The position numbers and the translations under genes are program-made. From a virus, in IMG/VR virus record IMGVR_UViG_3300020156_000025, positions 25,985 through 89,984 of that record: a stretch of 64,000 nucleotides of DNA; one strand, 5' to 3'. The notes under the pieces were generated by a model that worked only from the letters and a program-made list of their open reading frames with translations, ran no database searches and was not told where the DNA came from. Below are positions 3 through 59,355 of the stretch, in pieces. Position 1 is the first letter of the stretch. The number at the start of each line of letters is the position of its first letter.

Positions 3-2471
3 GCGGGTATGAGTGCCAAGGAGTCCACGACCGCCCTTGCCGACGTGGTGGATCTGAGCATTGCAGGGGAAATGGACATGGCGCGGGCGTCCGAGATCGT
101 GGTCGCCTCGCTTACCGCGTTCAAGCTGGAGGCGGAAAGCACGGCACGGGTCACGGACGTGCTCGCGCGAGCCGCCAACGCGTCGCCAGCATCCGTCAAC
201 GATCTCGGGGAGTCGCTGAAATTCGTGGCCCCCATCGCGCAGGCGCTCAAGGCCCCGATCGAAGACATCGGAGCCGCCCTTGCGATCCTCGCCAACAGTG
301 GGATCAAGGGAGGGAACGCGGGCCGCGGTCTGTCTTCCGTGATGGCGAAGCTGGTCGCACCGACCGCGGAGGCTAAGTCGATGCTGGACTCGCTGGGAAT
401 CTCTCTGGAGTCGATCAACCCGTCCATCGTCGGAATGGAGCGGGCGATGGCACAGCTTTCCAAAATGAACCAGCAGACGCTGGTGCGGATGTTCGGGGTA
501 GAAAACCTCGACATTGCCAACGTGCTCGCATCGAACGCGGACCGGATGGGCGAGTTCAGGCAGGCCATGTCGGACAGCACCATCACGGCGAGGGGGATGG
601 CGAAAGCCATGTCGGACACGCTGAAAGGGGACATGCAGGAGGCGAGCAGCGCGATCGAAGCGGTCCGCAAGGCAATCGGGAATCTGTTCAAGGGGGATCT
701 GCGTTCCCGGGTGCAGGGGTTCACGGAGTGGTTGCGGGAAAACCAGCAGGCCATCGTCGGGGTGGCGGACACGATGCGCGACCTTGCCCCTGTCGTGGTC
801 ACGGTGCTGGGGCACTACGTCGCGTTCAAGGGTTTGGCGATGGGGCTGACGCTCGGGAGGCAGGCCGTGGCGTGGGCTCTGGAAACCGCCGCGGTGGTGC
901 GGAACACGGCGTCGATCATGGCGAACGCCAATGCCCGCCGATACATGATGCAGGTCGGAATGTTCAACGCGGGTATTCCGATGGGGGTGGCCACGGCGCT
1001 CACGTCGAACGTGAGTTCGTTGTTCGCCGCCGCGTTCGGGGGAGGAGCCACCATTGCCGCGGTCAAGGCGGGATTGACGTTGGTGGGCAGTTCGGCCATC
1101 GCCGCCATCATCGGGTGGGGGCTGGGGAGTTACATCGAGTCTCAATTCAAGATCGGGGACCGGGTAGCCGCCGCGGTGTTCAAAACCTTCGATTCGCTGA
1201 ATGCCGCCGCGGACGATTCGATCAAGACGGTGCAAGGGATGATCGATGCGGCCAAGACGGAGGAACAGCTCGGTGAGGCCCGGGTGCGCGGGGAAAGGGA
1301 GCTTGCCAAATGGAAGGAGATTTCCAACCGGGCGGAGGACGAGTCGAAGACGCTGGCGGAGACCGTCGTGCAAACTTTGCAAAGACGGATGGAGCTGGCC
1401 GACCGGACGTTTGCGCGCAATCAGGCGAACCTCGCGCAGCAGCGGGAAGGTGCCGCCCTTGCCGAGGAGGAACTCAAGAGCAAGCAGGTCGCGCTCTACC
1501 ACGAGGAGAAGGCGATCGCGTTGCGCAAGTCTCAGCTCGACATGGAGAAGAGCACCCGGAGGAACGCCGTGGGCGTCAACCGGAATCTTCTGGAGCGGTC
1601 CGACGCCGGAACGAAGGAGGCGGCATACGATGCCGAGGAGCGTAGGATCACGTCGCTGGCCAATCACTACCGGACCCGATTCAACGCGGTGGCCGCGGCG
1701 GCGGGAGTGACAGTCATCAACGGGGACCGTGAGATCCGGACCGTGGACGGGGTGATCGCTTACTTCCGTGCCGCGATGCGCGCCGCGGGTGAGACGGGGA
1801 GCGCGGCGGTCCGCGGGGACGCCAGCCTGCATATCCTGACCAGATTCGCGCAGAGTGCGGACGCGATCATCCAAGCCCGGACGAAGCTGAACGAGACCGT
1901 CGCGAAGGACGAGAAGGCGGAGGAGAACGCGCTGCTCAAGAAGCGGGACCTGATGCTGGAGATCCAGATCGCGGAAGCGAAGGCAGCGGGGAACAACACC
2001 GGGGCGGAGAGGCTTGAGAGGGAGCTTCGCGTCTTGCAAGAGAAGCGCCGGATCATGGACGAGTTGAAGGTGTCGGAACGCGAAGCGACCGCCCTTGCGA
2101 CACGGAAGGTGGATGCGGAGATAGCGGCCAACCGACCGCCATCGGAGAGACCGGTGGACGTGGTGGCATCGTCGCTCCAGCAGGTAGGAGGCGGCGGGGG
2201 CTTCTTCATCGCGGGAACACAGAGCATCGGGGAGCGGCAGGTCCGGCTTGCGGAACAAGCCAACGCGCACCTTGCTGGAATCGCGGCCCGGTTGGGGGTG
2301 GGACTCTCTCCGGGAATCCTTCCGGGCGGGCCGCAGGTGACTGGATTGAACGGGCTCGGACGCACGCGGGAAACCGAATTGCTTGGACGGATCGCGGAGT
2401 TGCTGAACAGCATCGACGAACGCGGTAGGCGCAATCCCGGGAGCACGGCGCTCACGGTGGAAACACTCTAA
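3..2471 (+). CDS. Phage tail tape measure protein (5'-truncated by window)
   Basis: TP901-type tape-measure core (DLGESLKFVAPIA...ILANSGIKGGNAGRGL), long Ala-rich helical sequence, frame open to window start. Confidence 0.9.
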   Translation, partial: AGMSAKESTTALADVVDLSIAGEMDMARASEIVVASLTAFKLEAESTARVTDVLARAANASPASVNDLGESLKFVAPIAQALKAPIEDIGAALAILANSGIKGGNAGRGLSSVMAKLVAPTAEAKSMLDSLGISLESINPSIVGMERAMAQLSKMNQQTLVRMFGVENLDIANVLASNADRMGEFRQAMSDSTITARGMAKAMSDTLKGDMQEASSAIEAVRKAIGNLFKGDLRSRVQGFTEWLRENQQAIVGVADTMRDLAPVVVTVLGHYVAFKGLAMGLTLGRQAVAWALETAAVVRNTASIMANANARRYMMQVGMFNAGIPMGVATALTSNVSSLFAAAFGGGATIAAVKAGLTLVGSSAIAAIIGWGLGSYIESQFKIGDRVAAAVFKTFDSLNAAADDSIKTVQGMIDAAKTEEQLGEARVRGERELAKWKEISNRAEDESKTLAETVVQTLQRRMELADRTFARNQANLAQQREGAALAEEELKSKQVALYHEEKAIALRKSQLDMEKSTRRNAVGVNRNLLERSDAGTKEAAYDAEERRITSLANHYRTRFNAVAAAAGVTVINGDREIRTVDGVIAYFRAAMRAAGETGSAAVRGDASLHILTRFAQSADAIIQARTKLNETVAKDEKAEENALLKKRDLMLEIQIAEAKAAGNNTGAERLERELRVLQEKRRIMDELKVSEREATALATRKVDAEIAANRPPSERPVDVVASSLQQVGGGGGFFIAGTQSIGERQVRLAEQANAHLAGIAARLGVGLSPGILPGGPQVTGLNGLGRTRETELLGRIAELLNSIDERGRRNPGSTALTVETL

Positions 2472-2482
2472 CCTAGACACTC

Positions 2483-3250
2483 ATGCCCATAGACTATGAT
2501 ACGACGCTCCCGGGGGTGGTATGGCGGAATGGCCAGAAGCTCGCGACCTTGCTTGAGACCACGGGGGGTGAGGTGGTGTTCGACGACGTTGGGGTCGCTT
2601 CGGGCACGCTGGTCTATCAATGCATGTATGCGAACTCGGTCGCCCTTGTGGCTAGCTTCACCCGGCATCCCAGCTTCGCGTTCCTGAAACGGAAGAATGC
2701 CCGGATCGTGCGCGAGGAGGCCGGGATGGCGAGGGTGACGATCAATTTCGAGGGTATTCCGACGGGGGAAGAAAACGAGAACCGCAAGACCTATACGCTC
2801 CACGGGGGGACGGGAACGGAGCCGATCGAATCGCACACCCAGTTCGGGACTTTTGCAGGGAAGTGGAACGATCCCGCGACGTGGGTAAACGGTGCCCGGT
2901 TCGCCACGCAAGGGGAGGACAGGGGCAAGTTCTTGGGCTTCGTGGCCGCGCAGGGGGACGATGACCCGAATCCGAAAGCGGGGGTGCAGTCCTACTATGC
3001 GCCCACGCTGGTGTATTCGGAGGTGGAGCTGCGGTCCAAGGCGAACTCGTCGAGCATCGCGGTGAACATGAACAACCTAGGCAAGATCGACACGCCCCCC
3101 AATTCCGACGTGCTGCCGCAGGTGTCGTCGGGGAGGGACTGGCTGCTGACGGATTGCACGGTGGAGGAGGTGGGGGACGGGGTTCGGATCACCCGCCGCT
3201 GGAGATTGTCGGGACGGAACGGGTGGGACCCGGACATTTACGGAGATTGA
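2483..3250 (+). CDS. Putative tail/baseplate protein
   Basis: Directly after tape measure; beta-rich composition; no recognised motif. Confidence 0.55.
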   Translation: MPIDYDTTLPGVVWRNGQKLATLLETTGGEVVFDDVGVASGTLVYQCMYANSVALVASFTRHPSFAFLKRKNARIVREEAGMARVTINFEGIPTGEENENRKTYTLHGGTGTEPIESHTQFGTFAGKWNDPATWVNGARFATQGEDRGKFLGFVAAQGDDDPNPKAGVQSYYAPTLVYSEVELRSKANSSSIAVNMNNLGKIDTPPNSDVLPQVSSGRDWLLTDCTVEEVGDGVRITRRWRLSGRNGWDPDIYGD

Positions 3251-3253
3251 CCT

Positions 3254-4921
3254 ATGGCCGCATCTGCAAACGTGACGCTCGGGGGGAGGACCCGGTTGAA
3301 GGGATTCAAGGTGCCGGGACAACCCGCCCTTGAAGCCGCGTTGAACCGCTTGGCTACCGAGATCAATTCGATCCCGGACGTTCAGTTCGAGGGAGGACAG
3401 GGACTGGACGTGACGGAGCACAACGGTAAGATCGTTGTAGCATTGCGCAACGGTGCGCGGGGATGGCGTCCCCGTTACGAGCCGACGTTCGTGGACGGGA
3501 AGCTGCGCATCGGGCTAGGGACGGTGGGGTTGCACGCGGACGGGAACGGGGCGGGCGGGGTGGTCGAGCCGTATTTCCCTAGGTTCGAGGGGAAGGTGCT
3601 GAACCATGCGATCCCGCCCGAGCTGCCGGTGGAGCAGATAGACGACGGGGACAACAAGATCATCCTGCGCTGCTGTCTCTACGATTCTCGGATCGAGGTG
3701 GTGTCCGCGGAGGAGGACATGGACAAGGACGTGGGGGAGTGGATTATCACGCTCGCGACCTTTACCAAGGAGGGTGCGAAGATCTCGGACCTCCGGCACC
3801 TGTTCACTTCGGACGTGCTGATTCTGGACGCGTCGGAGTCGTGCGACATCGAAGGCTCGGACGATCCGGACCCGAGCGACGATTCCGACGGCGACGATAG
3901 CGACGATAGCGACGAGCCGCCGCCGTCCGATTCGGACGAGAGCGATGATTCCGACGATAGCTCGGGGAGCGGGGACGGGTGCTGCCCGGAAATCGCGCTC
4001 GACGCTACGGTGGTGAGTCCGGCGTCGCCGTTCTGTTTCTCCAGCGGGGATTCGCCGTATCCCTACTGGGTGGCGGGGTCGGTGAGTATTTCCAAGGCGT
4101 CCACCTGCGACGGATGCGAGGAAAAGCCCGTGTCGGTGCACGTGCAGGTGGGGGACGCGAGCACCAGTGCCAACCTGTTCCCGGGCGGTCCGCCCTTCAC
4201 GTTCCTGCTTCATCCGTCGTTCGGTTCGCCGTGCGCCACGGTCCCGGTGACGGCCACCATCGCTTCCCTTACCAGTGTGGCGGGGACCTGCCCGTGCTTC
4301 GCCACTAAGTCGGTGGACATCACCCTGCCCGGTCTGGAGCCGGACTGCGAATGCTCGGACGACTCCAGCGGAAGCTCCGACGATAGCGACGGAGGGGAGC
4401 TTCTGATGATGGCCCCGCCCGGGGAGATGATGCTGATGACGGAGGGTAGCGACGACTCCGCGCTCGATGACAAGGAGGCGGTGGTCGAGTCGTCCTTGTT
4501 CCCGACGGGGTATGCGGCGATGCGTTGCGTGGAGTCGCCGGAGACGTGGTTCACCGACACGTTCCGGGTGGAAATCACGGGGCGCGTCACGTTGCACCGG
4601 ATCGATGCAATGTTCGCCGACGTGTGCGATCCCGGGACGATCCGCGTTGTTTCCGCCGTGCCCGACTTGCCGCGACCTGTGGGATGTGTTGCACGCGAAT
4701 TCCCGCCGATGCACTGGAGTGTCTTGCTGAACCGCATGGTGCCGTCCTCGGAGGAGGGGGCGCATGTCGTGGTGCGCTGCGGATGGTTCTTGCGCCCGCG
4801 CAGCGTCATGGTCACGGTGGCCGGAATCCGCAAGGGCCGTTCGGGGCAGCGATTCGTGCCGAGGTCCAAGGAGGAATTCGACCGGAGCCAGGCGTTCTGG
4901 TCACAGCTCAAGGACCGATGA
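3254..4921 (+). CDS. Putative tail/virion protein with Ser/Asp-rich tracts, Cys-rich domain and tail-fibre-like C-terminal domain
   Basis: SDD/SD tracts at ~3850-3975 and ~4355-4390; many Cys; C-terminal CVESPETWFTD...IDAMF resembles domains at the ends of phage fibre proteins. Confidence 0.55.
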   Translation: MAASANVTLGGRTRLKGFKVPGQPALEAALNRLATEINSIPDVQFEGGQGLDVTEHNGKIVVALRNGARGWRPRYEPTFVDGKLRIGLGTVGLHADGNGAGGVVEPYFPRFEGKVLNHAIPPELPVEQIDDGDNKIILRCCLYDSRIEVVSAEEDMDKDVGEWIITLATFTKEGAKISDLRHLFTSDVLILDASESCDIEGSDDPDPSDDSDGDDSDDSDEPPPSDSDESDDSDDSSGSGDGCCPEIALDATVVSPASPFCFSSGDSPYPYWVAGSVSISKASTCDGCEEKPVSVHVQVGDASTSANLFPGGPPFTFLLHPSFGSPCATVPVTATIASLTSVAGTCPCFATKSVDITLPGLEPDCECSDDSSGSSDDSDGGELLMMAPPGEMMLMTEGSDDSALDDKEAVVESSLFPTGYAAMRCVESPETWFTDTFRVEITGRVTLHRIDAMFADVCDPGTIRVVSAVPDLPRPVGCVAREFPPMHWSVLLNRMVPSSEEGAHVVVRCGWFLRPRSVMVTVAGIRKGRSGQRFVPRSKEEFDRSQAFWSQLKDR

Positions 4922-6648
4922 TCTTCGATGAATATTTCGACAAGGTGGTGCTGATCGCGATGGACCCTGCGGGGGAACGCGCGGCAAGGGCCGCGGGGGA
5001 GATGGTGCGGCTGGGTCTGTCGGACAAGACGGAGATCGTGCGCGGGATGCCCGGTAACGAGATGGGCAAGCCGGGATGGTGGCCGAACGGACGGGGTGCG
5101 TGGGGGTGCTACCTGTCGCACTTGGCGCTGCTGATGCGGATGAAGCAAGAGGGCTGGGAGACGTTGCTGCTGCTGGAGGAAGACGTGGTGTTCCAAGAGG
5201 ACACGGCAACGCTGCTGCCCGAGGTGATGGCGTCGCTGCCCTCGGACTGGACGCAGTTGTATCTCGGGGGCCAGCACAGGGTGCCGCCGCACCGGCTGCC
5301 CGGAACGCCCGCCCTTGTGAGGGGGAGTAGCATCCACCGCACTCATGCATACGCGGTGCACCGGAAGGGGTTGAACCATTTGATCGCGCACCTGATGGAA
5401 CTGCCCGCGTTCCAACAGGCGAAGAAAGGCGGGACGAAGCTGCACATAGACCACCATTACGAGATGGCTCACCGGGCCAACCGGTGGAAGGTCTATGCGC
5501 CGTCGTTCTGGCTGGCCGGGCAGGGTGCGGGGTGGTCGGAGATACGGGCCAAGCAAGTGACCGCCGCGTGGTGGCACCGGAAGGAGACGCACCGCGAATA
5601 CCGCGGCTTGCCGGTGCTGCTGGGGGAGGCTGCCGCGGCCAACTACGGGAACGACGAAACGGAGAAGACCTTGCAGGCGATGGCGGAGGAGGACCCGAGG
5701 GAATTCGAGCGCATCCTTGTGGTTCTCGCGCAACAGGCGTTCCTGCATCAAACCTTGCCCGCGATCCGAAAGGTTCGACCGTGGCAACGGGCATGGCTAG
5801 AGGCCAATTGGCCCGCCGGGGTGGCGCAGCCCGATGATTTCGACCGACTGAGGGATTACCCGAGGGCCAAGCTGTTCGAGCATTCTTGGCTGAATCCCGT
5901 GCGCCGGAAAACCAGAATCGCAACCGAGAACGATAACATGACACCTGATATTTCGACAGCCGGAGGGGGCAGCCCGTTGTTCGTGTTCAGCTCGCCGCGC
6001 AGCGGAAGCACGCTGCTGGTATCCATACTGGACGGGCACGGGGACATCACGATGAACGGGGAACGCCGGGATTTCCTGTGGAGTCTCCGCAATCTGTGGG
6101 ACCACCGGGGGGCTTTGCAGAAAAACTCCCCGCGGGCGTTCCTTCCGATCGACGAGCAGGTGCAACAGGGGAACTTCCCTTCGCACGTGAACCATTCGAC
6201 GGAAGAGTCGTGGGCGGAGGGGGTGCGGGCGCTGTTGCGCGGGTGGGTCAATCCGGGGGAAGGGGACCGTTGGTGGGGGATGAAGGACGTGCATGTCGCC
6301 AAGCTAGGGATGGGTATGGGGGTCGAGATGTGGAGCTGGCTCCAGACCGTGATGCCCGATGCCCGGATCGTGTTTCTGACGCGCGACACGGGAGCGGTGG
6401 AGAGGAGCATGGAGCGGACGCTGGCGTGGTGGGTGCCTAGTTACGGGAACTGCATCGGGAACTGTATGCGCAAGGTGAAGGTGCAGCAGAACGCCTTCCG
6501 GGAATATCACGCGCTCAACCCGTCCACCACGGCACTTGTGGATTACGAGGACCTGACGGATTTCGCCCGCTTGCAGGCGAGCCTAGGGACCATCGGGGTC
6601 AAGCTCGATCCGGAGGTGCACGCGGAAAGAATCGCGGTAAGATTGTGA
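4918..6648 (+). CDS. GT25-like glycosyltransferase fused to a C-terminal sulfotransferase domain
   Basis: GT25 motifs FDKVVLI, GAWGCYLSH, LLLEEDV, THAYAV; sulfotransferase 5'-PSB loop FSSPRSGSTLL and IVFLTRD; ATGA overlap with upstream gene. Confidence 0.8.
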   Translation: MIFDEYFDKVVLIAMDPAGERAARAAGEMVRLGLSDKTEIVRGMPGNEMGKPGWWPNGRGAWGCYLSHLALLMRMKQEGWETLLLLEEDVVFQEDTATLLPEVMASLPSDWTQLYLGGQHRVPPHRLPGTPALVRGSSIHRTHAYAVHRKGLNHLIAHLMELPAFQQAKKGGTKLHIDHHYEMAHRANRWKVYAPSFWLAGQGAGWSEIRAKQVTAAWWHRKETHREYRGLPVLLGEAAAANYGNDETEKTLQAMAEEDPREFERILVVLAQQAFLHQTLPAIRKVRPWQRAWLEANWPAGVAQPDDFDRLRDYPRAKLFEHSWLNPVRRKTRIATENDNMTPDISTAGGGSPLFVFSSPRSGSTLLVSILDGHGDITMNGERRDFLWSLRNLWDHRGALQKNSPRAFLPIDEQVQQGNFPSHVNHSTEESWAEGVRALLRGWVNPGEGDRWWGMKDVHVAKLGMGMGVEMWSWLQTVMPDARIVFLTRDTGAVERSMERTLAWWVPSYGNCIGNCMRKVKVQQNAFREYHALNPSTTALVDYEDLTDFARLQASLGTIGVKLDPEVHAERIAVRL

Positions 6649-7208
6649 TGCAGGTGTTCCGGATCAGTGACGCGCCCCGCGAGGGGGAAACCCCGATAAA
6701 ACCCGTGTGGGGGTTGGGGAAGGTGCGGGGGAATTGCTCGGCGCAGGCGTCGGCGATGGCCGCGGTGCTGCGGACGGACGTGTATCCGGCGGTGGTGCTG
6801 GAGCACGACGCGGAGCGTCTGCGGGAGGGGTGGCCGGATTTTGCACAATGTGCAAACGCGGGCATGGACTGGTTGTGGTTGGGGGGTTCAACCATCTGGT
6901 GCGATGAGCGGGGGGAGGAAGTCCGGGACAGGCCGATGCCGTGGATGCCGTCTCCGGTGGCGGGGGTGGCGAAGGTGGACGGGCTCTACACGACGCACGC
7001 GGTGGCGATCCTGACGCCGGACGGGGCGATGCGGGCGCTGTGCGCCGCACTGCAAGGAATCCGCAAGGGGTGGCCGGTGGACGTGGCGATCATCATGGAG
7101 TGCAGGCATATGGGCTGGGAACGCTGGTGCGTGACCGAGCCGTGGTTCTGCCAGCGGGGGGTGAACCGCAGGTGGACGGACAAACCGCTGCCGCCGCCCT
7201 TGCCATGA
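6645..7208 (+). CDS. Divergent GT25-like glycosyltransferase
   Basis: VVLEHDA, WLWLGG, YTTHAVAI, WPVD match GT25 motif order. Confidence 0.55.
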   Translation: MMQVFRISDAPREGETPIKPVWGLGKVRGNCSAQASAMAAVLRTDVYPAVVLEHDAERLREGWPDFAQCANAGMDWLWLGGSTIWCDERGEEVRDRPMPWMPSPVAGVAKVDGLYTTHAVAILTPDGAMRALCAALQGIRKGWPVDVAIIMECRHMGWERWCVTEPWFCQRGVNRRWTDKPLPPPLP

Positions 7209-10753: not shown

Positions 10754-11425
10754 ATGAGACCTAACCGATGGATCGCGCTGGCCGCGTGCATGCTCGCCCT
10801 TGCGGGATGCGCGGGAACACAGAAGGTAGCCCCGCGGGTAGTGCAGGCCGAGGTGCCCAAGGCACGGGCCGTCGCGCCGGTCGCCGGAAAGGTGCGGGAC
10901 AACGCTCATGCCGTGGAGGTGTCCGCGGCCAAGGTGGAGGTGACGGCGGCGAACGTGTCGCGGGAGGCGAAGGACTTGCGCCGCATCGTGGGCTCGCTGA
11001 CGACGGAAGCGGAACGCCTGCGGAAGGTGGAGGCGATGACGGCGCAGGAGAAGGCCGACCTGTGGGCCAAGCTCACGGAAGTGTCCCGGTCCTCGGCGCT
11101 GCTGGAGTCCTACGTGGAGGAACAGAACAAGGCACTGTCGGTCCATCACGAGCAACGCAGGCAACTGACGGTGGCGATCGCCGAGCTGGAGGGGGCGGTG
11201 CGGGAAAAGGACACGGAGGTGGCGGGTCTGAGGTTGCAGCTCAAGGACGAGGAGGAGAGCGCGAAGACGCAGGCCGAGTTCGCCCGCACGGAATCGCAGC
11301 GGGCCGACCGGGAAGCGGCGAAGGCGGCGACCTCGAAAGGGACCGCGAAAGCCTTGGGCTGGGGGCTGGTAGCGGTGTCGCTGCTGCTGGCAGGGGCATG
11401 CGTGGTGATCTATCTCCGCAGGTAA
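10754..11425 (+). CDS. Candidate unimolecular spanin (lipoprotein, coiled coil, C-terminal TM)
   Basis: Lipobox LALAG-C, long heptad-like helix, C-terminal hydrophobic segment LGWGLVAVSLLLAGACVVIYL-RR; next to holin and endolysin. Confidence 0.65.
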   Translation: MRPNRWIALAACMLALAGCAGTQKVAPRVVQAEVPKARAVAPVAGKVRDNAHAVEVSAAKVEVTAANVSREAKDLRRIVGSLTTEAERLRKVEAMTAQEKADLWAKLTEVSRSSALLESYVEEQNKALSVHHEQRRQLTVAIAELEGAVREKDTEVAGLRLQLKDEEESAKTQAEFARTESQRADREAAKAATSKGTAKALGWGLVAVSLLLAGACVVIYLRR

Positions 11426-11456: not shown

Positions 11457-11855
11457 ATGAAATTCGACACGCTGAAATCGAACTGGCGGGAGTTGCTGGG
11501 AATCCTGCTGACGCTAGGGTTGCTGGTCGTGCTCGCCCTTGCGCTGGGATCGAGGGAGGTGGCGGGGGGTGCGCCCCCGGAACCGCTGCCGGAGGGATAC
11601 GGGGAAGGACGGCCTTACTTGGCTCTGATCCTGACGTTCCTCTTGGGGATGGTGGGGAACATGCTCCAGTTCTGCCTGTGCCTCGGGATGGCATGGTTCG
11701 GGTTGCGGGTGACGCTGCCGGAATCGGCCAAGGTGATTTTCTCCCGCACGTTCGACACGTGGTGGAAGGGGGGGACGACGCAGGAGCATATCCGGATCGG
11801 GCTGGTGGCCGCGGCGGTGCTCGCCCTTGTCGCCGGGTTGGTGTCGATCAACTGA
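11457..11855 (+). CDS. Putative holin
   Basis: Small protein with 3-4 hydrophobic segments immediately before endolysin. Confidence 0.6.
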   Translation: MKFDTLKSNWRELLGILLTLGLLVVLALALGSREVAGGAPPEPLPEGYGEGRPYLALILTFLLGMVGNMLQFCLCLGMAWFGLRVTLPESAKVIFSRTFDTWWKGGTTQEHIRIGLVAAAVLALVAGLVSIN

Positions 11856-16650: not shown

Positions 16651-16700
16651 AACCCGCCCGCCCTTGACTCCCGCCCTCTCATCTTCCGATCCGAATTCTC

Positions 16701-22657: not shown

Positions 22658-22704
22658 GCAGGAATATGCACACTTTGCAAAAAGGCACGAAACGGAACGA
22701 CACG

Positions 22705-25596: not shown

Positions 25597-25605
25597 CGCA
25601 AAATC

Positions 25606-25634: not shown

Positions 25635-25669
25635 GCCCTCGTCCTTTGCAGGAAACCAAATAACCGATC

Positions 25670-34296: not shown

Positions 34297-34300
34297 AGCT

Positions 34301-35712: not shown

Positions 35713-35746
35713 GGCCGGGGACATGCTAGGGCTACCGGAGCAACCG

Positions 35747-49027: not shown

Positions 49028-49546
49028 ATGAACGAAAACAACACACCGCCCTTGCAGGGCGTAGGTATCATCCTGATGGACATGGGGAGGACGGGCTTGT
49101 GGCTATCGCTGCGCCGCAACCGTGCCAAGGAATGGTTCGGGTATCTCCAGACACCGGGCGGACGGGTAGAGCCCGGGGAGAGCCATTGGGAAGCCGCTTA
49201 TCGCGAGCTGAAGGAGGAAACGGGCTTGGTCGTGCGGGAAGCCCGCGCCATCACCGGGTGCGTGGAATGGGTCCAGCCTAGGAGCCGGGAACACTATCGG
49301 TCCACGCACTACGTGGGGTTCACCGCACGTGTGCCTAACCGGGAAGACGCGGGGCATGGTCCGTGGCGTTTTCAGCCGTTCTCGACCGTATGGGAAATGG
49401 ACTATCCGTTGCTTCCGGCCATCGAGCACGCGCTGCACCGGTATGCGCGGGGTCACGACGCACCGCGAACGCTCGCACCCTGCCCTTGGGCCGCACCTTG
49501 GTGGGAGGACAACGCGCTCTTGACGCCGGAACAAACCGCACTGTGA
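49028..49546 (+). CDS. NUDIX hydrolase
   Basis: GGRVEPGESHWEAAYRELKEETGL Nudix box. Confidence 0.9.
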   Translation: MNENNTPPLQGVGIILMDMGRTGLWLSLRRNRAKEWFGYLQTPGGRVEPGESHWEAAYRELKEETGLVVREARAITGCVEWVQPRSREHYRSTHYVGFTARVPNREDAGHGPWRFQPFSTVWEMDYPLLPAIEHALHRYARGHDAPRTLAPCPWAAPWWEDNALLTPEQTAL

Positions 49547-50757: not shown

Positions 50758-51606
50758 ATGCCACGCGTCCGAAATACCCCGCCTGCCGCTGATCCCGCGG
50801 TGCAGAACATTGCCGCGATCCGCCTTGAGCGGAAGGCACTGGAGGACCTGATCCCGCATCCACGCAACCCGCGGGTGCACCCGGAACCGGGAACGCCGCA
50901 ATGGAATGCGTTGCAGGCGTCGCTGGCGCACGATTATTTCGACCCGATGGTATGGAACGAGCGGAACGGGAAACTGGTCTCGGGACATTTCCGCAAGAAG
51001 GTGATGCGGCACAACGGGGTGACGCACGCGGACGTGGTAGTGGTGAGCTATGACGAACCGACACACCTTGCCCGGATGATCGCGGCGAACAAGGCGGCGG
51101 GGGAGGATGACGAGGACGCGCTGCGGGTGCTGTTCTCGGAACTGCGCGAGGAGGACGGGGGAATGCTCGCCCTTACCGCGTATGACGAGACCGAGCTGGC
51201 CAACCTGTTCCCCGATCTGGAGGACGAGCAGGACGAGGAGGACACGGGGGATTCGCAGGAAGCACAGATTTCGCCCGTGGGGACGAACGAGTTCAGGCAG
51301 AATATCGAGGCGATCCATGCGCCCGCGATTCCGGTGGCGAGGGGGGAGTTGTGGCAGTGCGGGGAGCACCTGATCGCGTGCATCGACCCGGTGCGGGAGG
51401 GCTACCGCATCGCGCCCTTGCTCGATGAAACGCGCTGGCTGTTCATTGCGCCCGACCCGTTCTGTCTGGTGGGATGGGTATACGAGGACTCGTATGCGCT
51501 GATTCTCCAGCCGAACGCGGTGGTGGCGTCTTACACGGTGAGTGCGTGGGCCTCGGCCCATCCCGATCAACCGCCCGTGCCGGTGGAGTGGCCGGAGACC
51601 GAATGA
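50758..51606 (+). CDS. ParB/sulfiredoxin N-terminal domain protein
   Basis: LIPHPRNPRVH...PMVWNER.G.LVSGHFR; GELWQCGEH resembles the linker of ParB-methylase fusions. Confidence 0.75.
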   Translation: MPRVRNTPPAADPAVQNIAAIRLERKALEDLIPHPRNPRVHPEPGTPQWNALQASLAHDYFDPMVWNERNGKLVSGHFRKKVMRHNGVTHADVVVVSYDEPTHLARMIAANKAAGEDDEDALRVLFSELREEDGGMLALTAYDETELANLFPDLEDEQDEEDTGDSQEAQISPVGTNEFRQNIEAIHAPAIPVARGELWQCGEHLIACIDPVREGYRIAPLLDETRWLFIAPDPFCLVGWVYEDSYALILQPNAVVASYTVSAWASAHPDQPPVPVEWPETE

Positions 51607-51830
51607 AGACCACGCCTGCCGATTTCGACAAGGAACCGTCCCGGCAAAGGTTCGGGAAGGTGCCCCGGTTCACGTATTCCGTGAGGTGGGGGAACTGGTG
51701 GTTGCAGCCCGGGGGTTTGTTCCGGTGGACGCGATATGATTTCGTGGCAGGGGGTAAGCCCACGGTCAGGTATGACTGGCGGCGAATCCGGGGACCCGTG
51801 GACTTTTTGCAAACCGTGCAAAACCGATGA
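51603..51830 (+). CDS. Hypothetical protein
   Basis: ATGA-coupled short ORF. Confidence 0.45.
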   Translation: MKTTPADFDKEPSRQRFGKVPRFTYSVRWGNWWLQPGGLFRWTRYDFVAGGKPTVRYDWRRIRGPVDFLQTVQNR

Positions 51831-52507
51831 CGACGGAGGAGCAATTGAAGGAGGCGCTGGAGGAGAACCGCAGGCTCAAGGAGGGGCTGCTGCGGAACCG
51901 CAACCATGACGAGCGGCTGTCGGCGTTCATGGCAAAATACCGCGCCTACCGGCAGGCGCTTGCCTCGGTGGGCGGGCCGCTGGACGAGGACGTGCTGCGC
52001 GCCGCGGTCATGGAGCTGTGCTTGCCCTACGAGCTGGAGCTGGAGACCTTGACCGCACGCTTGAACCGCTGGAGGGAGGCGATGCGGGAGGTCAACGTGG
52101 ACGCATACCGGGAACGGAAATCCGTCTTGGACGGGGAATACAGGGAACTTCCGATGCCGCTTGAGCAACGATCGCGCTACCGGGGGATCATGCCTAGGTT
52201 GCGGGGGGTGGCGAGGCAGCTCGGGTATGCGCTGGCGGTGCACGGATCGGAGTCCCGGGATTTCGACATCGTGGCCGCTCCTTGGACCGCGGAAGCGGTG
52301 ACGCCGGAGGAACTGGCGGAGGGGTTGCGGAAGGCTATCGGGCCACGGGCCACGTTCCTTGCGGACGCGCAGGGGGTCGCGTGGGCGGACAAGCCGCACG
52401 GGAGACGCGCGGTGCTGATCATGCTGGATCATCTGGATTTTGTGCACGGGATACTGGACCTGTCGGTGATGCCCTGCTTGACTGTGGCCCATGAGGACGC
52501 TGGCTGA
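51827..52507 (+). CDS. Coiled coil plus minimal nucleotidyltransferase-like domain
   Basis: GYALAVHGSESRDFDIVA (GS...DxD). Confidence 0.55.
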   Translation: MTTEEQLKEALEENRRLKEGLLRNRNHDERLSAFMAKYRAYRQALASVGGPLDEDVLRAAVMELCLPYELELETLTARLNRWREAMREVNVDAYRERKSVLDGEYRELPMPLEQRSRYRGIMPRLRGVARQLGYALAVHGSESRDFDIVAAPWTAEAVTPEELAEGLRKAIGPRATFLADAQGVAWADKPHGRRAVLIMLDHLDFVHGILDLSVMPCLTVAHEDAG

Positions 52508-53441
52508 AAATCCGCCCGAGGGGGTGAAGGTGACGGGGGGCGGGATGAGCGATCGTTTGCTCGGACGGTGGTTCTGCGTATCGTCGCTGGAACCCGCGAT
52601 TTACACCGCGATCGATGCGGGGGTGGTGGACTCGGTGCTGGTGTCGCTGTCCTACTGCAAGGCCCGGATGAAGGACGGGGTGCTGGGGAACACGCAGAAG
52701 TTCGACGATTTTCTGGCCCTTTGCGAGGACCGCGGGGTGAAGGTGTTCATGGACTGCGGGGCGTTCACGATGTGCATGGCGCTGGCGAAGGAGCACAACC
52801 TGCCCTTGTCAACGGTGTTCGCGTGGGAGGAGGACCAGTTCGGGGACCATCTCACCCGGTTGATGGAATTCTACATGGCCGCAATGTCGCGGTGGGAGGA
52901 CCAGTTGTGGGGCTACGTGGAGGTGGACGTGGGGCCGTGGGAACAGCGCGTCGCGCGCCGTTTGTGGATGGAGGCGCAGGGGATCGCGCCGATTCCGGTA
53001 TTCCGCGCCGCTACCGATCCGTGGGTGAGTCTGGACGTGCTGGGGCAACAATACGACCGCATCTGCATGGGGGGAGGGGTGAAGGCCCGGCCCGCGGTGC
53101 GGACGATGCTGTTCCACGAGCTGTCGCTGCGCTTGAGGCAATACCCGTGGCTATACGTGCACGCGCTGGGGATGACGTGGACGGGGAGCCTCACGTCGTT
53201 TCCCATCGGTTCGTGCGACTCGACTACGTGGTTGAATATCGCGAAATTCGGGAATGAGAAGACCGTGAGTCTGGCGGGATATACCTCGACCCGGACCAAC
53301 CGGGACGCGATGGAAGAACCGATGACCGGGGAATTCCGGAACGTGCTGCGCGTCGCCGGAATGGCGCAATATGGGCTGACCTCCCGGGTGCGGAGGGAAC
53401 AGAACGAATCGACGCGCTCCGCCCTTGCCGGGGAGGGGTGA
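52491..53441 (+). CDS. TGT-fold (DpdA-like) guanine transglycosylase
   Basis: VFMDCGAFT, EVD, IPVF, ICMGG, VHALG, SCDSTTW. Confidence 0.7.
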   Translation: MRTLAENPPEGVKVTGGGMSDRLLGRWFCVSSLEPAIYTAIDAGVVDSVLVSLSYCKARMKDGVLGNTQKFDDFLALCEDRGVKVFMDCGAFTMCMALAKEHNLPLSTVFAWEEDQFGDHLTRLMEFYMAAMSRWEDQLWGYVEVDVGPWEQRVARRLWMEAQGIAPIPVFRAATDPWVSLDVLGQQYDRICMGGGVKARPAVRTMLFHELSLRLRQYPWLYVHALGMTWTGSLTSFPIGSCDSTTWLNIAKFGNEKTVSLAGYTSTRTNRDAMEEPMTGEFRNVLRVAGMAQYGLTSRVRREQNESTRSALAGEG

Positions 53442-57694: not shown

Positions 57695-57695
57695 C

Positions 57696-57977
57696 ATGAC
57701 CCCGACGCTGCGAGCTTACGCGCTGGAACGCTACCCGGGGGAGCTGCACCCGGACGCACTGAGCGCCGAGATCGTGCTCTACTTGAAAGGGCAAGGGGAG
57801 GAAGCGCTGAACACCGCCCTTGCCGCCACGAATGATTGCACGGAGCTGAACCCGGAGGACCCCCGCCCTTGCGGGAAATGCAACGGGTGTATCTCGCGTT
57901 GGAACGCGCTGTTGACCGTTGCGGAGGTGGAGGAATTCCCGGAACATTGGTATCGAATTGCACCCCCTTGGAGATGA
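57696..57977 (+). CDS. Hypothetical Cys-containing protein
   Basis: PCGKCNGC. Confidence 0.5.
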   Translation: MTPTLRAYALERYPGELHPDALSAEIVLYLKGQGEEALNTALAATNDCTELNPEDPRPCGKCNGCISRWNALLTVAEVEEFPEHWYRIAPPWR

Positions 57978-58333: not shown

Positions 58334-58363
58334 ACGATACCCGATGTGCGAACATGCGTTCCG

Positions 58364-59098
58364 ATGATCGCAACCGATGAACTCAAAAAGGTAGGCTTCA
58401 AGGAACGCGCGGGGAGTCTTTATCTCGGCTATTGGCCGTGGATGTGGTGCAATGATGAGCAGACGTTCCCTCACGTGACGCGGAGGCACATGATCCACCG
58501 CGAGTGCGAGATGCTGGAGTGGCTGACGAAGCGGACCGCGAGGCACGAATACTTCATGAGCCTGACGCCCCGGACTTACTCCTACGGGAACCGCGGAACC
58601 GGGGATGAAACCTACGCGTCGAAACCGTTCGAGCCGTGGACGCTGACCCTCATGGGGAAGTTGAACGATTTGCTGGGGACCCGGTTCAACGTCTGTTTCC
58701 TGAACAAATACGACGACGAGCACCAGCACCTCGGGTGGCATGCGGACGACTTTCCGGGAATGATCTCGGAGGAGCCCATCGCTGTCGTGTCGTTCGGGGC
58801 GGAGCGGGAGATTTGGGTAAAACTCCAGAAAGAACCCTGCGATGCATGTGCCGGAACCGGATGCACTTTTCGGGAGGGAAGTTCGCCGGAAGACAAGATC
58901 GACTGCCCGCAATGCAAGGGCACCGGAAGCTGTCCCTCGAAAGGCATCGTGCCGCCTGAGCAACGCATCCTGCTGGAACAGGGTTCGGTGTTCCTGATGC
59001 CGCCCGGCTATCAGGACACGCATTTCCACCGCATCCCGAAACACTCCCGCCCTTGTGGTCCCCGGATCAGCCTCACGTTCCGATCTTTCGCCGATTAA
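58364..59098 (+). CDS. alkB: AlkB-family 2OG-Fe(II) dioxygenase with inserted CxxCxGxG Zn finger
   Basis: FNVCFLNKY, GWHADD, SFGAER, HRIPK, RISLTFR. Confidence 0.88.
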   Translation: MIATDELKKVGFKERAGSLYLGYWPWMWCNDEQTFPHVTRRHMIHRECEMLEWLTKRTARHEYFMSLTPRTYSYGNRGTGDETYASKPFEPWTLTLMGKLNDLLGTRFNVCFLNKYDDEHQHLGWHADDFPGMISEEPIAVVSFGAEREIWVKLQKEPCDACAGTGCTFREGSSPEDKIDCPQCKGTGSCPSKGIVPPEQRILLEQGSVFLMPPGYQDTHFHRIPKHSRPCGPRISLTFRSFAD

Positions 59099-59145
59099 CC
59101 ATTGACCGAAGCCCCGAATAAACGACCTCGCACAGGCACCCGTCC

Positions 59146-59355
59146 ATGAACAGACAAAGGAGGTGGCAGCACCGCATGACCGGAGAAAACCGATGCAACC
59201 AATGCGGACAACCGAAACCGGGGAGGGAAGGATTGAAACGCTGCCGCCCTTGCCAAGAGAAGGCCACCGAACGCTCCAGAAACGACTATCGCAAAAAACA
59301 TGGAATACCGCTCGATAGCCCCTTGTTCCACTCCTTGACCAGAAAACGCAAATAA
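59146..59355 (+). CDS. Small basic Zn-finger protein
   Basis: CNQC...CRPC. Confidence 0.5.
   Translation: MNRQRRWQHRMTGENRCNQCGQPKPGREGLKRCRPCQEKATERSRNDYRKKHGIPLDSPLFHSLTRKRK

What the first reader, a model, noticed from the sequence alone, without database searches (positions are those of the whole stretch)
32..59252. Chi-like, strand-polarised octamer CGCCCTTG heavily over-represented
Seen: about 40 copies on the + strand by manual count, against a rough base-composition expectation of 1-2. I did not notice the reverse complement CAAGGGCG. It occurs in more than one frame (GCC CTT G = Ala-Leu, using the otherwise uncommon CTT; CCG CCC TTG = Pro-Pro-Leu) and in intergenic DNA (16659, 29783), although the coding strand is G-rich. 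Established: Chi and KOPS are polarised, over-represented octamers. Inference: this could be the host's Chi-equivalent accumulated to resist RecBCD/AddAB and load the phage RecA, or a primase, packaging or translocation signal.
Basis: partly seen in the sequence, partly recalled or inferred. Interest (0 to 1): 0.75.

Follow-up and report, generated by a model that had tools for sequence, protein, structure and literature searches.

The report
One-strand DNA word saturating a phage

Summary
CGCCCTTG occurs 42 times on + and 0 on - in the window. It occurs 59:1 in the whole 89,984-bp phage contig, where it is the most frequent octamer.

Synonymous-codon shuffling expects 3.0 copies in genes; 50 are seen. 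All three reading frames and non-coding DNA are each enriched 11-20 fold. About 35% of all places that could carry the word synonymously do carry it. Spacing is more even than random (CV 0.72). The recognised unit is about 10 nt: Y-CGCCCTTG-not G.

Twelve relatives share the replication and recombination genes, but none has a comparable word.

The pattern matches Chi-enriched phages (LLS, P1, MD8; PMC12315714). However, the host is unknown, and I found no bacterial genome or other phage with the same polar word. The phage also has its own RecA, exonuclease and RuvC-like genes.

Alone in its clade, it carries a 7-deazaguanine DNA-modification set, which offers a bolder rival reading.

Best reading: a Chi-type polar signal, confidence about 0.4. 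The scan has noted similar polar words in other phages.

The parts
32..39 (+). CGCCCTTG copy; codons ACC GCC CTT GCC (T-A-L-A)
275..282 (+). CGCCCTTG copy; GCC GCC CTT GCG (A-A-L-A)
1454..1461 (+). CGCCCTTG copy; GCC GCC CTT GCC
2090..2097 (+). CGCCCTTG copy; ACC GCC CTT GCG
2641..2648 (+). CGCCCTTG copy; GTC GCC CTT GTG
3325..3332 (+). CGCCCTTG copy; outside my strict gene set (lies in ORF 3254-4921)
5310..5317 (+). CGCCCTTG copy; CCC GCC CTT GTG
7195..7202 (+). CGCCCTTG copy; GCC GCC CTT GCC
8391..8398 (+). CGCCCTTG copy; second frame GCG CCC TTG AAC (A-P-L-N)
9178..9185 (+). CGCCCTTG copy; GCC GCC CTT GCG
10795..10802 (+). CGCCCTTG copy; CTC GCC CTT GCG
11534..11541 (+). CGCCCTTG copy; CTC GCC CTT GCG
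11822..11829 (+). CGCCCTTG copy; CTC GCC CTT GTC
12952..12959 (+). CGCCCTTG copy; outside my strict gene set
13452..13459 (+). CGCCCTTG copy; ACC GCC CTT GCC
14170..14177 (+). CGCCCTTG copy; GCC GCC CTT GCG (in AAA+ ATPase gene)
16659..16666 (+). CGCCCTTG copy; intergenic, just after the stop of ORF 16159-16650
17386..17393 (+). CGCCCTTG copy; GCC GCC CTT GTA
19205..19212 (+). CGCCCTTG copy; third frame CGC CCT TGC (R-P-C)
19945..19952 (+). CGCCCTTG copy; GCC GCC CTT GCC
20314..20321 (+). CGCCCTTG copy; GCC GCC CTT GAG
21946..21953 (+). CGCCCTTG copy; inside the DnaB-like helicase ORF 21374-22657 (not in my strict gene set)
23291..23298 (+). CGCCCTTG copy; TCG CCC TTG CTC (in PolA)
25436..25443 (+). 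CGCCCTTG copy; CCG CCC TTG CCT (in PolA)
25783..25790 (+). CGCCCTTG copy; GCC GCC CTT GCC
28658..28665 (+). CGCCCTTG copy; GCC GCC CTT GAA
29783..29790 (+). CGCCCTTG copy; intergenic, between the stop at 29780 and the start at 29822
31776..31783 (+). CGCCCTTG copy; outside my strict gene set
33498..33505 (+). CGCCCTTG copy; CCG CCC TTG CCG (in RecA gene)
34220..34227 (+). CGCCCTTG copy; CCG CCC TTG CCT
34890..34897 (+). CGCCCTTG copy; GCC GCC CTT GTG (in exonuclease gene)
38891..38898 (+). CGCCCTTG copy; CCC GCC CTT GCG (in RNase H gene)
42088..42095 (+). CGCCCTTG copy; ACC GCC CTT GGC (the only copy followed by G)
43395..43402 (+). CGCCCTTG copy; outside my strict gene set
47496..47503 (+). 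CGCCCTTG copy; GCC GCC CTT GAG
49047..49054 (+). CGCCCTTG copy; CCG CCC TTG CAG
51413..51420 (+). CGCCCTTG copy; GCG CCC TTG CTC (in ParB-like gene)
53420..53427 (+). CGCCCTTG copy; TCC GCC CTT GCC (in DpdA-like gene)
57815..57822 (+). CGCCCTTG copy; ACC GCC CTT GCC
57864..57871 (+). CGCCCTTG copy; CGC CCT TGC (R-P-C); 49 nt after the previous copy, the closest pair
59048..59055 (+). CGCCCTTG copy; CGC CCT TGT
59245..59252 (+). CGCCCTTG copy; outside my gene set
21374..36340 (+). Context, not shown to read the word: replication and recombination block. It holds a DnaB-like helicase, PolA with a UDG-like domain, a DnaG-type primase, an SF2 helicase, RecA, a Cas4-like exonuclease and a weak RuvC-like match.
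   Evidence: Pfam and PHROGs. PolA, primase, SF2 helicase, RecA and exonuclease are each present in 12 of 12 relatives, none of which has a comparable word.
50758..53441 (+). Context, candidate private reader: ParB-like protein (50758-51606) and TGT/DpdA-like protein (52491-53441).
   Evidence: PHROGs: phrog_620 ParB-like, E 3.4e-26; phrog_887 queuine tRNA-ribosyltransferase, E 7.3e-14. Pfam finds nothing. The DpdA-like gene has no homolog in the 12 relatives.
60795..63371 (+). Context: ORF with a QueC-like domain (7-cyano-7-deazaguanine synthase family). The start of the ORF is probably over-called.
   Evidence: Pfam QueC E 4.4e-13; phrog_1550 E 2.3e-23.

Best explanation
The word is a selected, strand-specific DNA signal of about 10 nt: pyrimidine, CGCCCTTG, then any base but G. 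It is spread evenly over the phage chromosome so that an enzyme tracking along the DNA in one direction meets a correctly oriented copy every 1-2 kb.

Most likely it is the Chi-type regulatory sequence of the unknown host's end-processing helicase-nuclease (RecBCD, AddAB or similar). The phage would have accumulated it so that exposed double-strand ends, from injection, rolling-circle tails or packaging cuts, are spared and channelled into recombination rather than degraded.

Shown: the word is real, polar, frame-independent, evenly spaced and specific to this lineage.
For: 1. Selection at the DNA level.
- 59:1 polarity in the contig, and the most frequent octamer.
- 50 copies in genes against 3.0 +/- 1.7 under synonymous shuffling.
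- Each frame and non-coding DNA is separately enriched 11-20 fold.
- The word is carried at 34 of 96, 13 of 37 and 3 of 5 places where the protein sequence allows it.

2. Coverage-like layout.
- Spacing CV is 0.72 on the circle; only 0.46% of 5000 random placements are as even.
- In the left 62 kb the CV is 0.59; 0 of 5000 random placements are as even.
- There is no preference within genes, for gene ends, or for the TTTGCAAA boxes.
- Density is the same in clade-core genes (1/1490 bp) and accessory genes (1/1450 bp).

3. The word is sharply defined. Only positions -1 and +1 are constrained: -1 is C46 T10 G3 A0; +1 is C32 A14 T12 G1. Single-mismatch variants are near background, except ...TTC with 15:2.

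4. Published precedent with the same signature (PMC12315714, sections 15 and 18 read).
- LLS: 23 Chi, one per 1.86 kb, 20 in the active orientation.
- P1: 50 Chi in 94.8 kb.
- Pseudomonas phage MD8: 32 copies of the Pseudomonas Chi, all on one strand.
[quoted passage not shown] 5. Lineage-specific, as in lambdoid phages. None of 12 relatives has a comparable word, although they share the replisome and recombination genes. This fits a facultative adaptation to a host better than a requirement of the conserved phage machines.

6. One relative (G095) is modestly enriched in the canonical E. coli Chi on the same sense strand: 21:4, with 20 in genes against 7.4 +/- 2.4.
Against: - The host is unknown, so identity with a host Chi is untested.
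- Three sampled bacterial genomes have the word mostly antisense to genes (its complement encodes Lys-Gly) and show no replichore polarity. These genomes were picked by word density, not as hosts.
- The phage encodes RecA, an exonuclease and a RuvC-like protein. [quoted passage not shown]
- Copies are evenly spread rather than clustered at one end. Density is about 2-fold lower in the right-hand 30%. The physical ends are unknown.
- The word is pyrimidine-rich, whereas the Chi words I know are G-rich (partly recalled).
- The cultured relative SM1 does not hoard the Pseudomonas Chi: 3+3 copies.
- All genes lie on +, so polarity towards replication or packaging cannot be separated from polarity towards transcription in this genome.
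Confidence: 0.4

Rival explanations
1. Private self-tag. The word is the recognition site of the phage's own 7-deazaguanine insertion system (DpdA-like transglycosylase with a ParB/DpdB-like partner and QueC). Because a 10-nt site would occur only about twice by chance, the phage has multiplied it. All copies are oriented so that the modified G lies on one strand, for example to mark or shield DNA from a tracking nuclease, or to keep the bulky base off the template strand.
For: - PHROGs finds a ParB-like protein (E 3.4e-26), a TGT/DpdA-like protein (E 7.3e-14) and a QueC-like domain (E 2.3e-23) in the window (Pfam QueC).
- The DpdA-like gene has no homolog in the 12 relatives, and QueC has only one weak homolog. 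These relatives also lack the word.
- 59-79 sites would be about 0.1% of the roughly 56,600 G. Passages read in Cui et al. (10.1101/2023.04.13.536721) report under 0.1% of G for bacterial DpdA and DpdA2.
- Bacterial DpdA needs DpdB, a ParB-like ATPase. Its partly known site, CxGCxG, requires a C after the target G (PMC10164549, passages read). (C)CGC at the 5' end of the word, including the preferred -1 C, fits that core.
- An earlier scan note (e1-6008524) made the same guess for another phage. That note is not independent evidence.
Against: - The DpdA assignment rests on one PHROG match. Pfam finds no TGT, and neither a sequence nor a profile search finds a solved relative.
- FolE, QueD and QueE were not found among the proteins scanned.
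- Among 68 viral loci of at least 8 kb that encode this protein family, none had a comparable private word. Three carry GCGATCGC at 23-39 dispersed copies. Three AT-rich loci carry AAGTATTA at 12-13 copies. The rest have at most 9 dispersed copies of any octamer.
- No described DpdA site is over-represented or polar.
- About half of this phage's genes are unique to it, so the co-occurrence is weak evidence.
Confidence: 0.13
2. Signal for the phage's own replication or recombination machinery. Examples are preferred start sites for the DnaG-type primase on the lagging-strand template of a unidirectionally replicating genome, or a Chi-like site for the phage's own helicase plus Cas4-like exonuclease.
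For: - Mean spacing of 1.3-1.5 kb and significantly even spacing recall Okazaki-fragment lengths (recalled).
- The word sits on the G-rich strand, which would be the lagging-strand template if the skew reflected replication.
- The phage encodes a primase, DnaB, an SF2 helicase, an exonuclease and RecA.
- A long site would have to be multiplied to be useful.
Against: - The primase, DnaB-PolA, SF2 helicase, exonuclease and RecA are orthologous over their full lengths in 12 of 12 relatives. None of these relatives has a comparable word.
- The apparent N-terminal extension of the primase is an ORF-calling artefact.
- Known DnaG-type primases read trinucleotides (recalled).
- The strand is purine-rich (G>C and A>T). 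That looks like a coding-strand effect rather than a replication effect.
Confidence: 0.12
3. Transcription- or RNA-level polar signal. Examples are sites for a DNA-binding roadblock or regulator (stoperator-like), an RNA polymerase pause or anti-termination element on the non-template strand, or a protein-binding motif in every mRNA.
For: - All called genes are on +, so every copy is co-oriented with transcription and present in the mRNA.
- The word is pyrimidine-rich in an otherwise purine-rich transcript strand.
- Pieces of the phage are present in RNA libraries from two other studies.
Against: - There is no preference for intergenic DNA: 8-9 of 59 copies lie in the 18% of DNA I did not call as genes.
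- There is no preference for gene starts or ends.
- Only 38 of 88 genes carry a copy.
- Even spacing along the DNA regardless of gene borders is not what promoters, terminators, operators or translation signals show.
- The RNA-library contigs cannot show strand, ends or processing.
Confidence: 0.1
4. Guide sequence for a double-strand DNA translocase: KOPS/SRS-like for a host FtsK/SpoIIIE, or a polar signal for the packaging motor.
For: - Polarity is 98%. Exact 8-mer length and strict orientation are KOPS-like: KOPS skew is 0.79-0.91, and frequency runs from 1/12.6 kb down to 1/2.1 kb in L. lactis (PMC3384302, passages read).
- The complement contains AAGGG, which resembles the 3' part of the B. 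subtilis SRS quoted in that paper.
Against: - I know of no role for FtsK guidance in a phage (recalled).
- No FtsK-like gene appears among the proteins scanned.
- The terminase is shared with 8 of 12 relatives that lack the word.
- The density is 8 times that of E. coli KOPS.
Confidence: 0.07
5. No function: a by-product of codon, codon-pair or amino-acid usage, or of composition.
For: 34 of 59 copies use one codon pair, GCC-CTT.
Against: - Observed is 50 against 3.0 +/- 1.7 (max 10 of 1000) under synonymous shuffling.
- Three frames and non-coding DNA are each enriched.
- The word runs against the G-rich composition of the strand.
- Bacterial genes and other GC-rich phages carry the word on the antisense strand instead.
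Confidence: 0.02

Closest known systems
Chi-enriched phages: E. coli phages LLS and P1, Pseudomonas phage MD8 (Zheng et al. 2025, PMC12315714; abstract and sections 15 and 18 read)
   Same: An asymmetric octamer is the most frequent octamer of the genome. Nearly all copies are in one orientation (20 of 23; 32 of 32). Density is about one per 1.9 kb. The runner-up octamer overlaps by 7 nt. Codon usage does not explain the excess. The trait is present in some members of a phage group and absent in others.
   Different: In those phages the word is the experimentally known Chi of the host; here the host and its Chi are unknown. Those phages lack Rec modules; this one has RecA, an exonuclease and a RuvC-like gene. 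Their copies cluster near one DNA end; here they are evenly spaced. Here the polarity is higher (59:1) and the density slightly higher (1/1.5 kb). The word is pyrimidine-rich.
KOPS / SRS guide motifs of FtsK / SpoIIIE (Nolivos et al. 2012, PMC3384302; passages read)
   Same: Exact 7-8-nt polar words read by a tracking motor, with strong skew.
   Different: They are chromosomal, oriented towards dif, usually one per 10-20 kb, G- or purine-rich, and need FtsK. No such use is known for a phage (recalled).
Stoperators of cluster A mycobacteriophages (L5 gp71; recalled, no paper read here)
   Same: Tens of copies of an asymmetric site spread over the genome, in one orientation relative to transcription.
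   Different: They are 13 bp long, mostly in short intergenic gaps, and belong to temperate phages with a known repressor. Here the unit is 8-10 nt, the copies are mainly inside genes in all frames, and no repressor or integrase was seen among the proteins scanned.
Recognition site of bacterial DpdA/DpdB (Gedara et al. 2023, PMC10164549; passages read), and phage DpdA motifs GA/GGC (titles and abstracts of PMC7544227 and PMC10484667 seen in a listing)
   Same: The phage encodes DpdA-like, ParB/DpdB-like and QueC-like proteins. The number of sites fits the low modification level reported for bDpdA and DpdA2. The CxGC core fits the 5' end of the word.
   Different: No DpdA site is known to be long, over-represented or polar. 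Modification here is untested.
HIP1 (GCGATCGC) of cyanobacteria, also seen in phage contigs (name recalled; counts)
   Same: A host-lineage octamer written many times into viral DNA.
   Different: It is palindromic and therefore not polar. It was seen here only in three unrelated DpdA-family contigs, not in this phage.

Membership tests
Chi sites hoarded by a phage | Short asymmetric word over-represented beyond composition and codon usage | tested here: met
   59 copies against 1.8-2.3 (Markov orders 0-2). 50 in genes against 3.0 +/- 1.7 under synonymous shuffling. Most frequent octamer.
Chi sites hoarded by a phage | Copies overwhelmingly in one orientation | tested here: met
   59:1 in the contig; 42:0 in the window.
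Chi sites hoarded by a phage | Word is the Chi of the host: over-represented and skewed in the host genome, and recognised by its RecBCD/AddAB | not testable with these tools
   Host unknown. In 50 bacterial genomes found by a pair-pattern scan the word is 0.7-5.7 times its control. Three of them were examined at sequence level and show gene-antisense placement and no replichore polarity.
Chi sites hoarded by a phage | Phage lacks its own recombination module or RecBCD inhibitor (a correlate in lambdoid phages, not a definition) | tested here: not met
   RecA (E 7.7e-42), exonuclease (phrog_2506) and a weak RuvC-like match are present. No inhibitor was recognised, but many proteins have no match.
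Chi sites hoarded by a phage | Copies concentrated near the DNA end at which the nuclease enters | tested here: inconclusive
   Spacing is even (CV 0.72), and density is about 2-fold lower in the last 30% of the contig. The physical ends are unknown: the contig ends share 10 bp, and IMG/VR calls it linear.
KOPS / SRS | Polar 7-8-mer read by the FtsK/SpoIIIE gamma domain, oriented towards dif | not testable with these tools
   Polarity is met. No FtsK-like gene or dif was seen among the proteins scanned. Density is 8 times that of E. coli KOPS.
Primase recognition sites | Site specificity travels with the primase; orthologous primases should impose comparable words | tested here: not met
   The primase is orthologous in 12 of 12 relatives (30-49% identity over residues ~180-516). 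None of them has a comparable polar word.
Stoperators | Asymmetric sites co-oriented with transcription | tested here: met
   All called genes and 59 of 60 copies are on +.
Stoperators | Preference for short intergenic gaps; repressor of a temperate phage | tested here: not met
   8-9 of 59 copies lie in the 18% of DNA I did not call as genes, so there is no enrichment. No integrase or repressor appeared among the roughly 90 proteins scanned.
DpdA/DpdB target site | DpdA, a ParB-like partner and preQ0-pathway genes are present | tested here: inconclusive
   PHROG-level matches only. Pfam finds QueC but no TGT. No solved relative by sequence or profile.
DpdA/DpdB target site | G in the word is replaced by a 7-deazaguanine | not testable with these tools
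   Needs native DNA. Only contigs of the runs were available.
DpdA/DpdB target site | Other phages with this enzyme family also carry a private over-represented word | tested here: not met
   68 loci of at least 8 kb were examined. Three carry GCGATCGC and three carry AAGTATTA at 12-13 copies. The others have at most 9 dispersed copies of any octamer. 20-kb slices of this phage have 9-19.

The most novel reading that the evidence does not exclude
The phage writes and reads its own tag. CGCCCTTG would be a private, strand-specific address for the phage's DpdA/DpdB-like 7-deazaguanine transglycosylase, or for another phage-specific tracking enzyme. It would be multiplied to one copy per 1.5 kb so that the whole chromosome is marked as self on one strand. 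That would be a sequence-addressed, polar hypermodification system rather than a borrowed host Chi.
Probability: 0.15. Interest if true: 0.85.

Novelty: new variant of a known kind. Interest (0 to 1): 0.55.

Why it matters
If the word is a Chi-type signal, it would give the Chi sequence of an uncultured soil bacterium directly from its phage. It would also show that Chi hoarding extends to large lytic-type phages that carry their own RecA, which the lambdoid rule (Chi-rich means Rec-less) does not predict.

If instead the phage's own deazaguanine system or another private enzyme reads it, this would be the first case of a phage multiplying a long recognition site to mark one strand of its chromosome.

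Either way the word is a clean, testable handle. Sixty identical sites can be checked by native long-read sequencing, nuclease assays or recoding. The same statistics could also be used to link phages to hosts.

Tried and rejected
1. Apparent extreme polarity in a Geothrix genome (G035). The match listing showed 100 of 100 first matches on +. Fetched DNA showed 11/10, 19/5, 5/10 and 15/9 in four 100-kb blocks. The listing had given forward matches first. Lead rejected.

2. Host search by the word.
- I counted the word in 50 of those 80 genomes and co-oriented pairs in the same 50.
- The excess over the control is explained by the antisense of Lys-Gly codons.
- In 400 kb of the densest genome (Brevundimonas), the complement ranks 163rd among 1,446 frequent octamers (51 against 26.7) and follows gene strand, not replichore.
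- 41 genomes of the G035 family gave counts only.

3. Host search by proteins. RNase H was flat at 34-50% identity in 40 of 50 anchor genomes. The GT25-sulfotransferase matched 0 of 50. Two Atlas look-ups gave only weak Pseudomonadota or virus hints. No tRNA genes were found.

4. Same word in other viruses. I counted the word in all 80 loci and in the whole records of 50 of them, and fetched 7. Most are local tandem or peptide repeats. The best, G145 (15:0), has all its genes on the other strand, so it is the ordinary antisense Lys-Gly case.

5. Close relatives.
- PolA scans of viral contigs and metagenome contigs found only 40-54% identical proteins.
- The RecA word search found at most 57% identity.
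- The single-protein RecA scan found none; the alignment scan found 10 loci.

6. Reads. Only contigs were available. RNA-library pieces are identical to the window and show nothing about ends, nicks, strands or variants.

7. Known Chi and KOPS words in this phage. None stands out. GCTGGTGG at 18:1 is as expected from codon usage (14.5 +/- 3.1).

8. DpdA link. See the rival above: 68 loci tested with no general association. A structure prediction of the DpdA-like protein was not run.

9. Literature. The word and its complement occur in 4 papers, all as primers or unrelated. Other searches. Supplementary files were not opened; the supplementary tables of PMC12315714 (Chi counts per phage) might hold further comparable cases.

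10. Words in relatives. G002 GGCGGCT (58:1; 49 in genes against 12.2) and G004 TCTAACA (60:16; 27 non-coding) are enriched but not evenly spaced (CV 1.02 and 1.28). I do not count them as the same phenomenon.

Full report
WHAT THE DNA IS. The window is bases 25985-89984 of a single 89,984-bp virus record. The record comes from soil: the only DNA run that holds it fully is a soil metagenome.

It is a tailed phage. Pfam and PHROGs find these genes:
- a large terminase, a portal, a distantly T5-like capsid protein and a tape-measure protein;
- a DnaB-like helicase, a family-A polymerase with a UDG-like domain and a DnaG-type primase;
- an SF2 helicase, RecA, a Cas4-like exonuclease, a weak RuvC-like match and RNase H.

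My rough gene calls (88 ORFs, 82% of the contig) are all on the + strand. That strand is rich in G and A. The contig ends share 10 bp, and another assembly of the same phage is 93,755 bp long, so the assembly is probably circular. The physical ends are unknown.

- CGCCCTTG occurs 42 times on + and never on - in the window (shuffles give 4.1 +/- 1.8 for both strands).
- It occurs 59:1 in the contig, where it is the most frequent of all octamers.
- Low-order Markov models expect about 2 copies. Higher orders approach the observed count only because the word's own sub-words feed the model.
- Shuffling synonymous codons within each gene 1000 times gives 3.0 +/- 1.7 copies (maximum 10), against 50 observed in genes.
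- The excess is not one codon pair. For the frames NNC-GCC-CTT-G, NCG-CCC-TTG and CGC-CCT-TG, observed counts are 34, 13 and 3, against expected 1.66, 1.17 and 0.23. DNA outside my gene calls has 8 against 0.55.
- Of all places where the encoded protein would allow the word by synonymous choice, 34 of 96, 13 of 37 and 3 of 5 carry it. The same one-third saturation in the two main frames points to selection on the nucleotide word itself.
- The reverse complement is not avoided: 1 seen, 1.5-4 expected.

ANATOMY.
- No flank beyond one base is conserved. The base before is C (46), T (10), G (3), never A. The base after is C (32), A (14), T (12), G (1).
- The 7-mer CGCCCTT is 79:7 and is followed by G (59) or C (15). 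Other single-mismatch variants are near background and not polar.
- The read unit is therefore about Y-CGCCCTT-S-(not G). It is not part of a longer repeat.
- Copies are spaced more evenly than chance. CV is 0.72 on the circle (0.46% of 5000 random placements are as low), and 0.59 in the left 62 kb (0 of 5000).
- They show no preference for gene starts, gene ends or relative position in genes, and none for the 25 palindromic TTTGCAAA boxes.
- Density is the same in genes shared with relatives (1 per 1490 bp) and in genes private to this phage (1 per 1450 bp). It is about half as high in the right-hand 28 kb.
- So the layout follows the chromosome, not the genes.

RELATIVES. The nearest sequences are distant: PolA 36-54% and RecA at most 57% identity.

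I compared twelve genomes. They were eight IMG/VR records (G001-G004, G095-G098) and the cultured phages SM1 (Pseudomonas), HJ05 (Aeromonas), L338C (Rhizobium) and RcMenchie (Rhodobacter). All keep their genes essentially on one strand.
- PolA, primase, a conserved 390-aa protein, the SF2 helicase, RecA, the exonuclease and a 401-aa protein are each present in all 12. The AAA+ ATPase is in 11.
- The octamer is not enriched in the eleven relatives counted: 0-8 copies on the richer strand in ten, and 13 antisense copies in G096. The script for RcMenchie did not report this word.
- A codon-aware search for any over-represented 7- or 8-mer in all thirteen genomes found nothing comparable. This phage reaches z 20-25.
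- What the relatives do share are TGCAA-type palindromes and longer promoter-like words.
- G002 has GGCGGCT at 58:1 (49 in genes against 12.2). G004 has TCTAACA at 60:16. Both are randomly or patchily spaced (CV 1.02 and 1.28).
- SM1 does not hoard the Pseudomonas Chi: 3+3 copies.
- G095 is modestly enriched in the canonical E. coli Chi on its sense strand: 21:4, with 20 in genes against 7.4 +/- 2.4.
- The primase's apparent extra N-terminal domain is an ORF-calling artefact.

These results argue that the word is not a requirement of the conserved replisome, recombination or packaging proteins. It looks like a facultative acquisition of this lineage.

WHO READS IT? Co-orientation of an asymmetric site implies a reader that tracks along the nucleic acid in one direction. 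The candidates are an end-processing helicase-nuclease (Chi), a dsDNA translocase (KOPS/SRS or the packaging motor), the replisome, or RNA polymerase. A ribosome is excluded by the three frames.

The published case with the same signature is Chi hoarding (PMC12315714, sections 15 and 18):
- LLS has 23 Chi, one per 1.86 kb, 20 in the active orientation.
- P1 has 50 Chi in 94.8 kb.
- Pseudomonas phage MD8 has 32 copies of the Pseudomonas Chi, all on one strand.
[quoted passage not shown] - Related phages may have none.
This phage matches on every one of those points, at a slightly higher density and purity.

It differs in four ways:
- It has its own RecA, exonuclease and RuvC-like genes; in lambdoid phages Chi abundance goes with lack of a Rec module.
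- Its copies are evenly spread rather than clustered at an end.
- The word is pyrimidine-rich.
- The host's Chi is unknown.

THE HOST TEST FAILED TO FIND A HOST.
- In 50 of those genomes the word is 0.7-5.7 times as frequent as its reversed control.
- One genome seemed perfectly polar in the listing, but the fetched DNA disproved that.
- At sequence level the word lies mainly antisense to bacterial genes, because its complement encodes Lys-Gly. In the densest genome it is unremarkable: rank 163, with no replichore polarity.
- A GC-rich 37-kb phage with 15:0 copies turned out to be the same antisense effect.
- These controls sharpen the oddity here. This phage carries on its sense strand a word that ordinary GC-rich coding DNA carries on the antisense strand.
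- Protein-based host hints were uninformative.

A SECOND CANDIDATE READER.
- Late in the work, PHROGs showed a ParB-like protein (50758-51606), a TGT/DpdA-like protein (52491-53441) and a QueC-like domain (in 60795-63371) (Pfam QueC).
- These are the makings of a 7-deazaguanine DNA-modification system with a DpdB-like partner, as in the bacterial Dpd system (PMC10164549, passages).
- The DpdA-like gene is absent from all 12 relatives.
- One modified G per site would be about 0.1% of all G. That is the order reported for bacterial DpdA and DpdA2 (10.1101/2023.04.13.536721, passages).
- The CxGC core of the bacterial site fits the 5' end of the word.
- This gives a bolder reading: a private, strand-specific tag.
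- I tested one prediction. Of 68 viral loci (at least 8 kb) that encode this protein family, none has a comparable private word. Three have GCGATCGC and three have a 12-13-copy AT-rich word.
- The enzyme assignment itself rests on one profile match. Pfam and solved structures give nothing.
- I therefore keep it as a rival at about 0.13.

VERDICT. The word is a genuine, strongly selected, strand-polar, evenly spaced DNA signal specific to this phage lineage.
- Best-supported mechanism: a Chi-type signal for a host end-processing nuclease (about 0.4).
- Rivals: a private deazaguanine or other phage tag (0.13), a signal for the phage's own replication or recombination machine (0.12), a transcription- or RNA-level signal (0.10), translocase guidance (0.07), and artefact (0.02). 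The rest is unassigned.

The scan's notebook lists similar polar words in other uncultured phages (e1-3417562, e1-3420969, e1-3411225, e1-1940278), and one octamer tied by guess to DpdA (e1-6008524). The phenomenon therefore recurs. Those notes are unchecked and were used only as leads.

Noticed in passing
window 50758-53441 and 60795-63371: ParB/DpdB-like, TGT/DpdA-like and QueC-like genes suggest a 7-deazaguanine DNA modification system of the bacterial DpdA/DpdB type in a phage. The DpdA-like gene is absent from all 12 relatives. FolE, QueD and QueE were not seen among the proteins scanned. The family is large: 590 representatives at E<=0.001.
   Followed up: partly
window 1376, 7696, 11862, 12848, 15359, 19721, 22674, 25569, 28492, 30495, 31898, 34779, 36435, 36827, 39864, 40937, 46684, 48111, 51806, 57339, 62462 (and four upstream of the window): The palindromic box TTTGCAAA occurs 25 times against 0.8 expected; 10 copies lie outside my gene calls. 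Relatives have their own TGCAA-type palindromes (for example AATCGATT/TGCAATCGATTGCA in RcMenchie, CGCTTGCA in SM1, TGTTGCA in L338C). This looks like a clade-wide operator, promoter or parS-like site. It has no spatial link to the octamer.
   Followed up: partly
G002 (L011-L014), G004 (L019-L023), G095 (L202-L206): Other polar words in relatives. GGCGGCT is 58:1 in G002 (in all frames, 49 against 12.2). TCTAACA is 60:16 in G004 (27 copies non-coding). The canonical E. coli Chi GCTGGTGG is 21:4 in G095 (20 against 7.4 +/- 2.4). All are weaker and not evenly spaced.
   Followed up: partly
L394, L402, L410 (IMG/VR contigs of 97.5, 89.5 and 113.6 kb): Three viral contigs encoding the same DpdA-like family carry GCGATCGC at 23-39 dispersed copies per 20 kb (expected under 1). 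From memory this is the cyanobacterial HIP1 palindrome, so they are probably cyanophages or cyanobacterial proviruses.
   Followed up: no
window 14001-34000: Short contigs identical to the phage (23 of 25 and 15 of 16 laid pieces at 99% or more) occur in metatranscriptome libraries of two other soil studies. The same phage genotype is therefore widespread. Transcription is not shown.
   Followed up: partly
window 22015-25596 and 26625-28181: The longest-ORF starts of PolA and primase are over-called. The PolA ORF overlaps the DnaB-like gene (21374-22657). The first ~180 residues of the primase ORF are an Arg/Gly-rich stretch with no counterpart in relatives; the real start is probably near 27171.
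   Followed up: partly
window 49007-49546 and 58346-59098: A NUDIX hydrolase-like gene and an AlkB-like 2OG-Fe(II) oxygenase gene lie among the early genes.
   Followed up: no
contig ends (contig 1-10 and 89975-89984; window 63991-64000): The first and last 10 bases of the contig are identical, and another assembly of the phage is 93,755 bp. This suggests a circular assembly or a collapsed terminal repeat.
   Followed up: no
tool behaviour: In the genome search pattern listings, one large genome's rows were given with forward-strand matches first, which mimics perfect polarity. Strand order in those listings should be checked against fetched DNA.
   Followed up: yes
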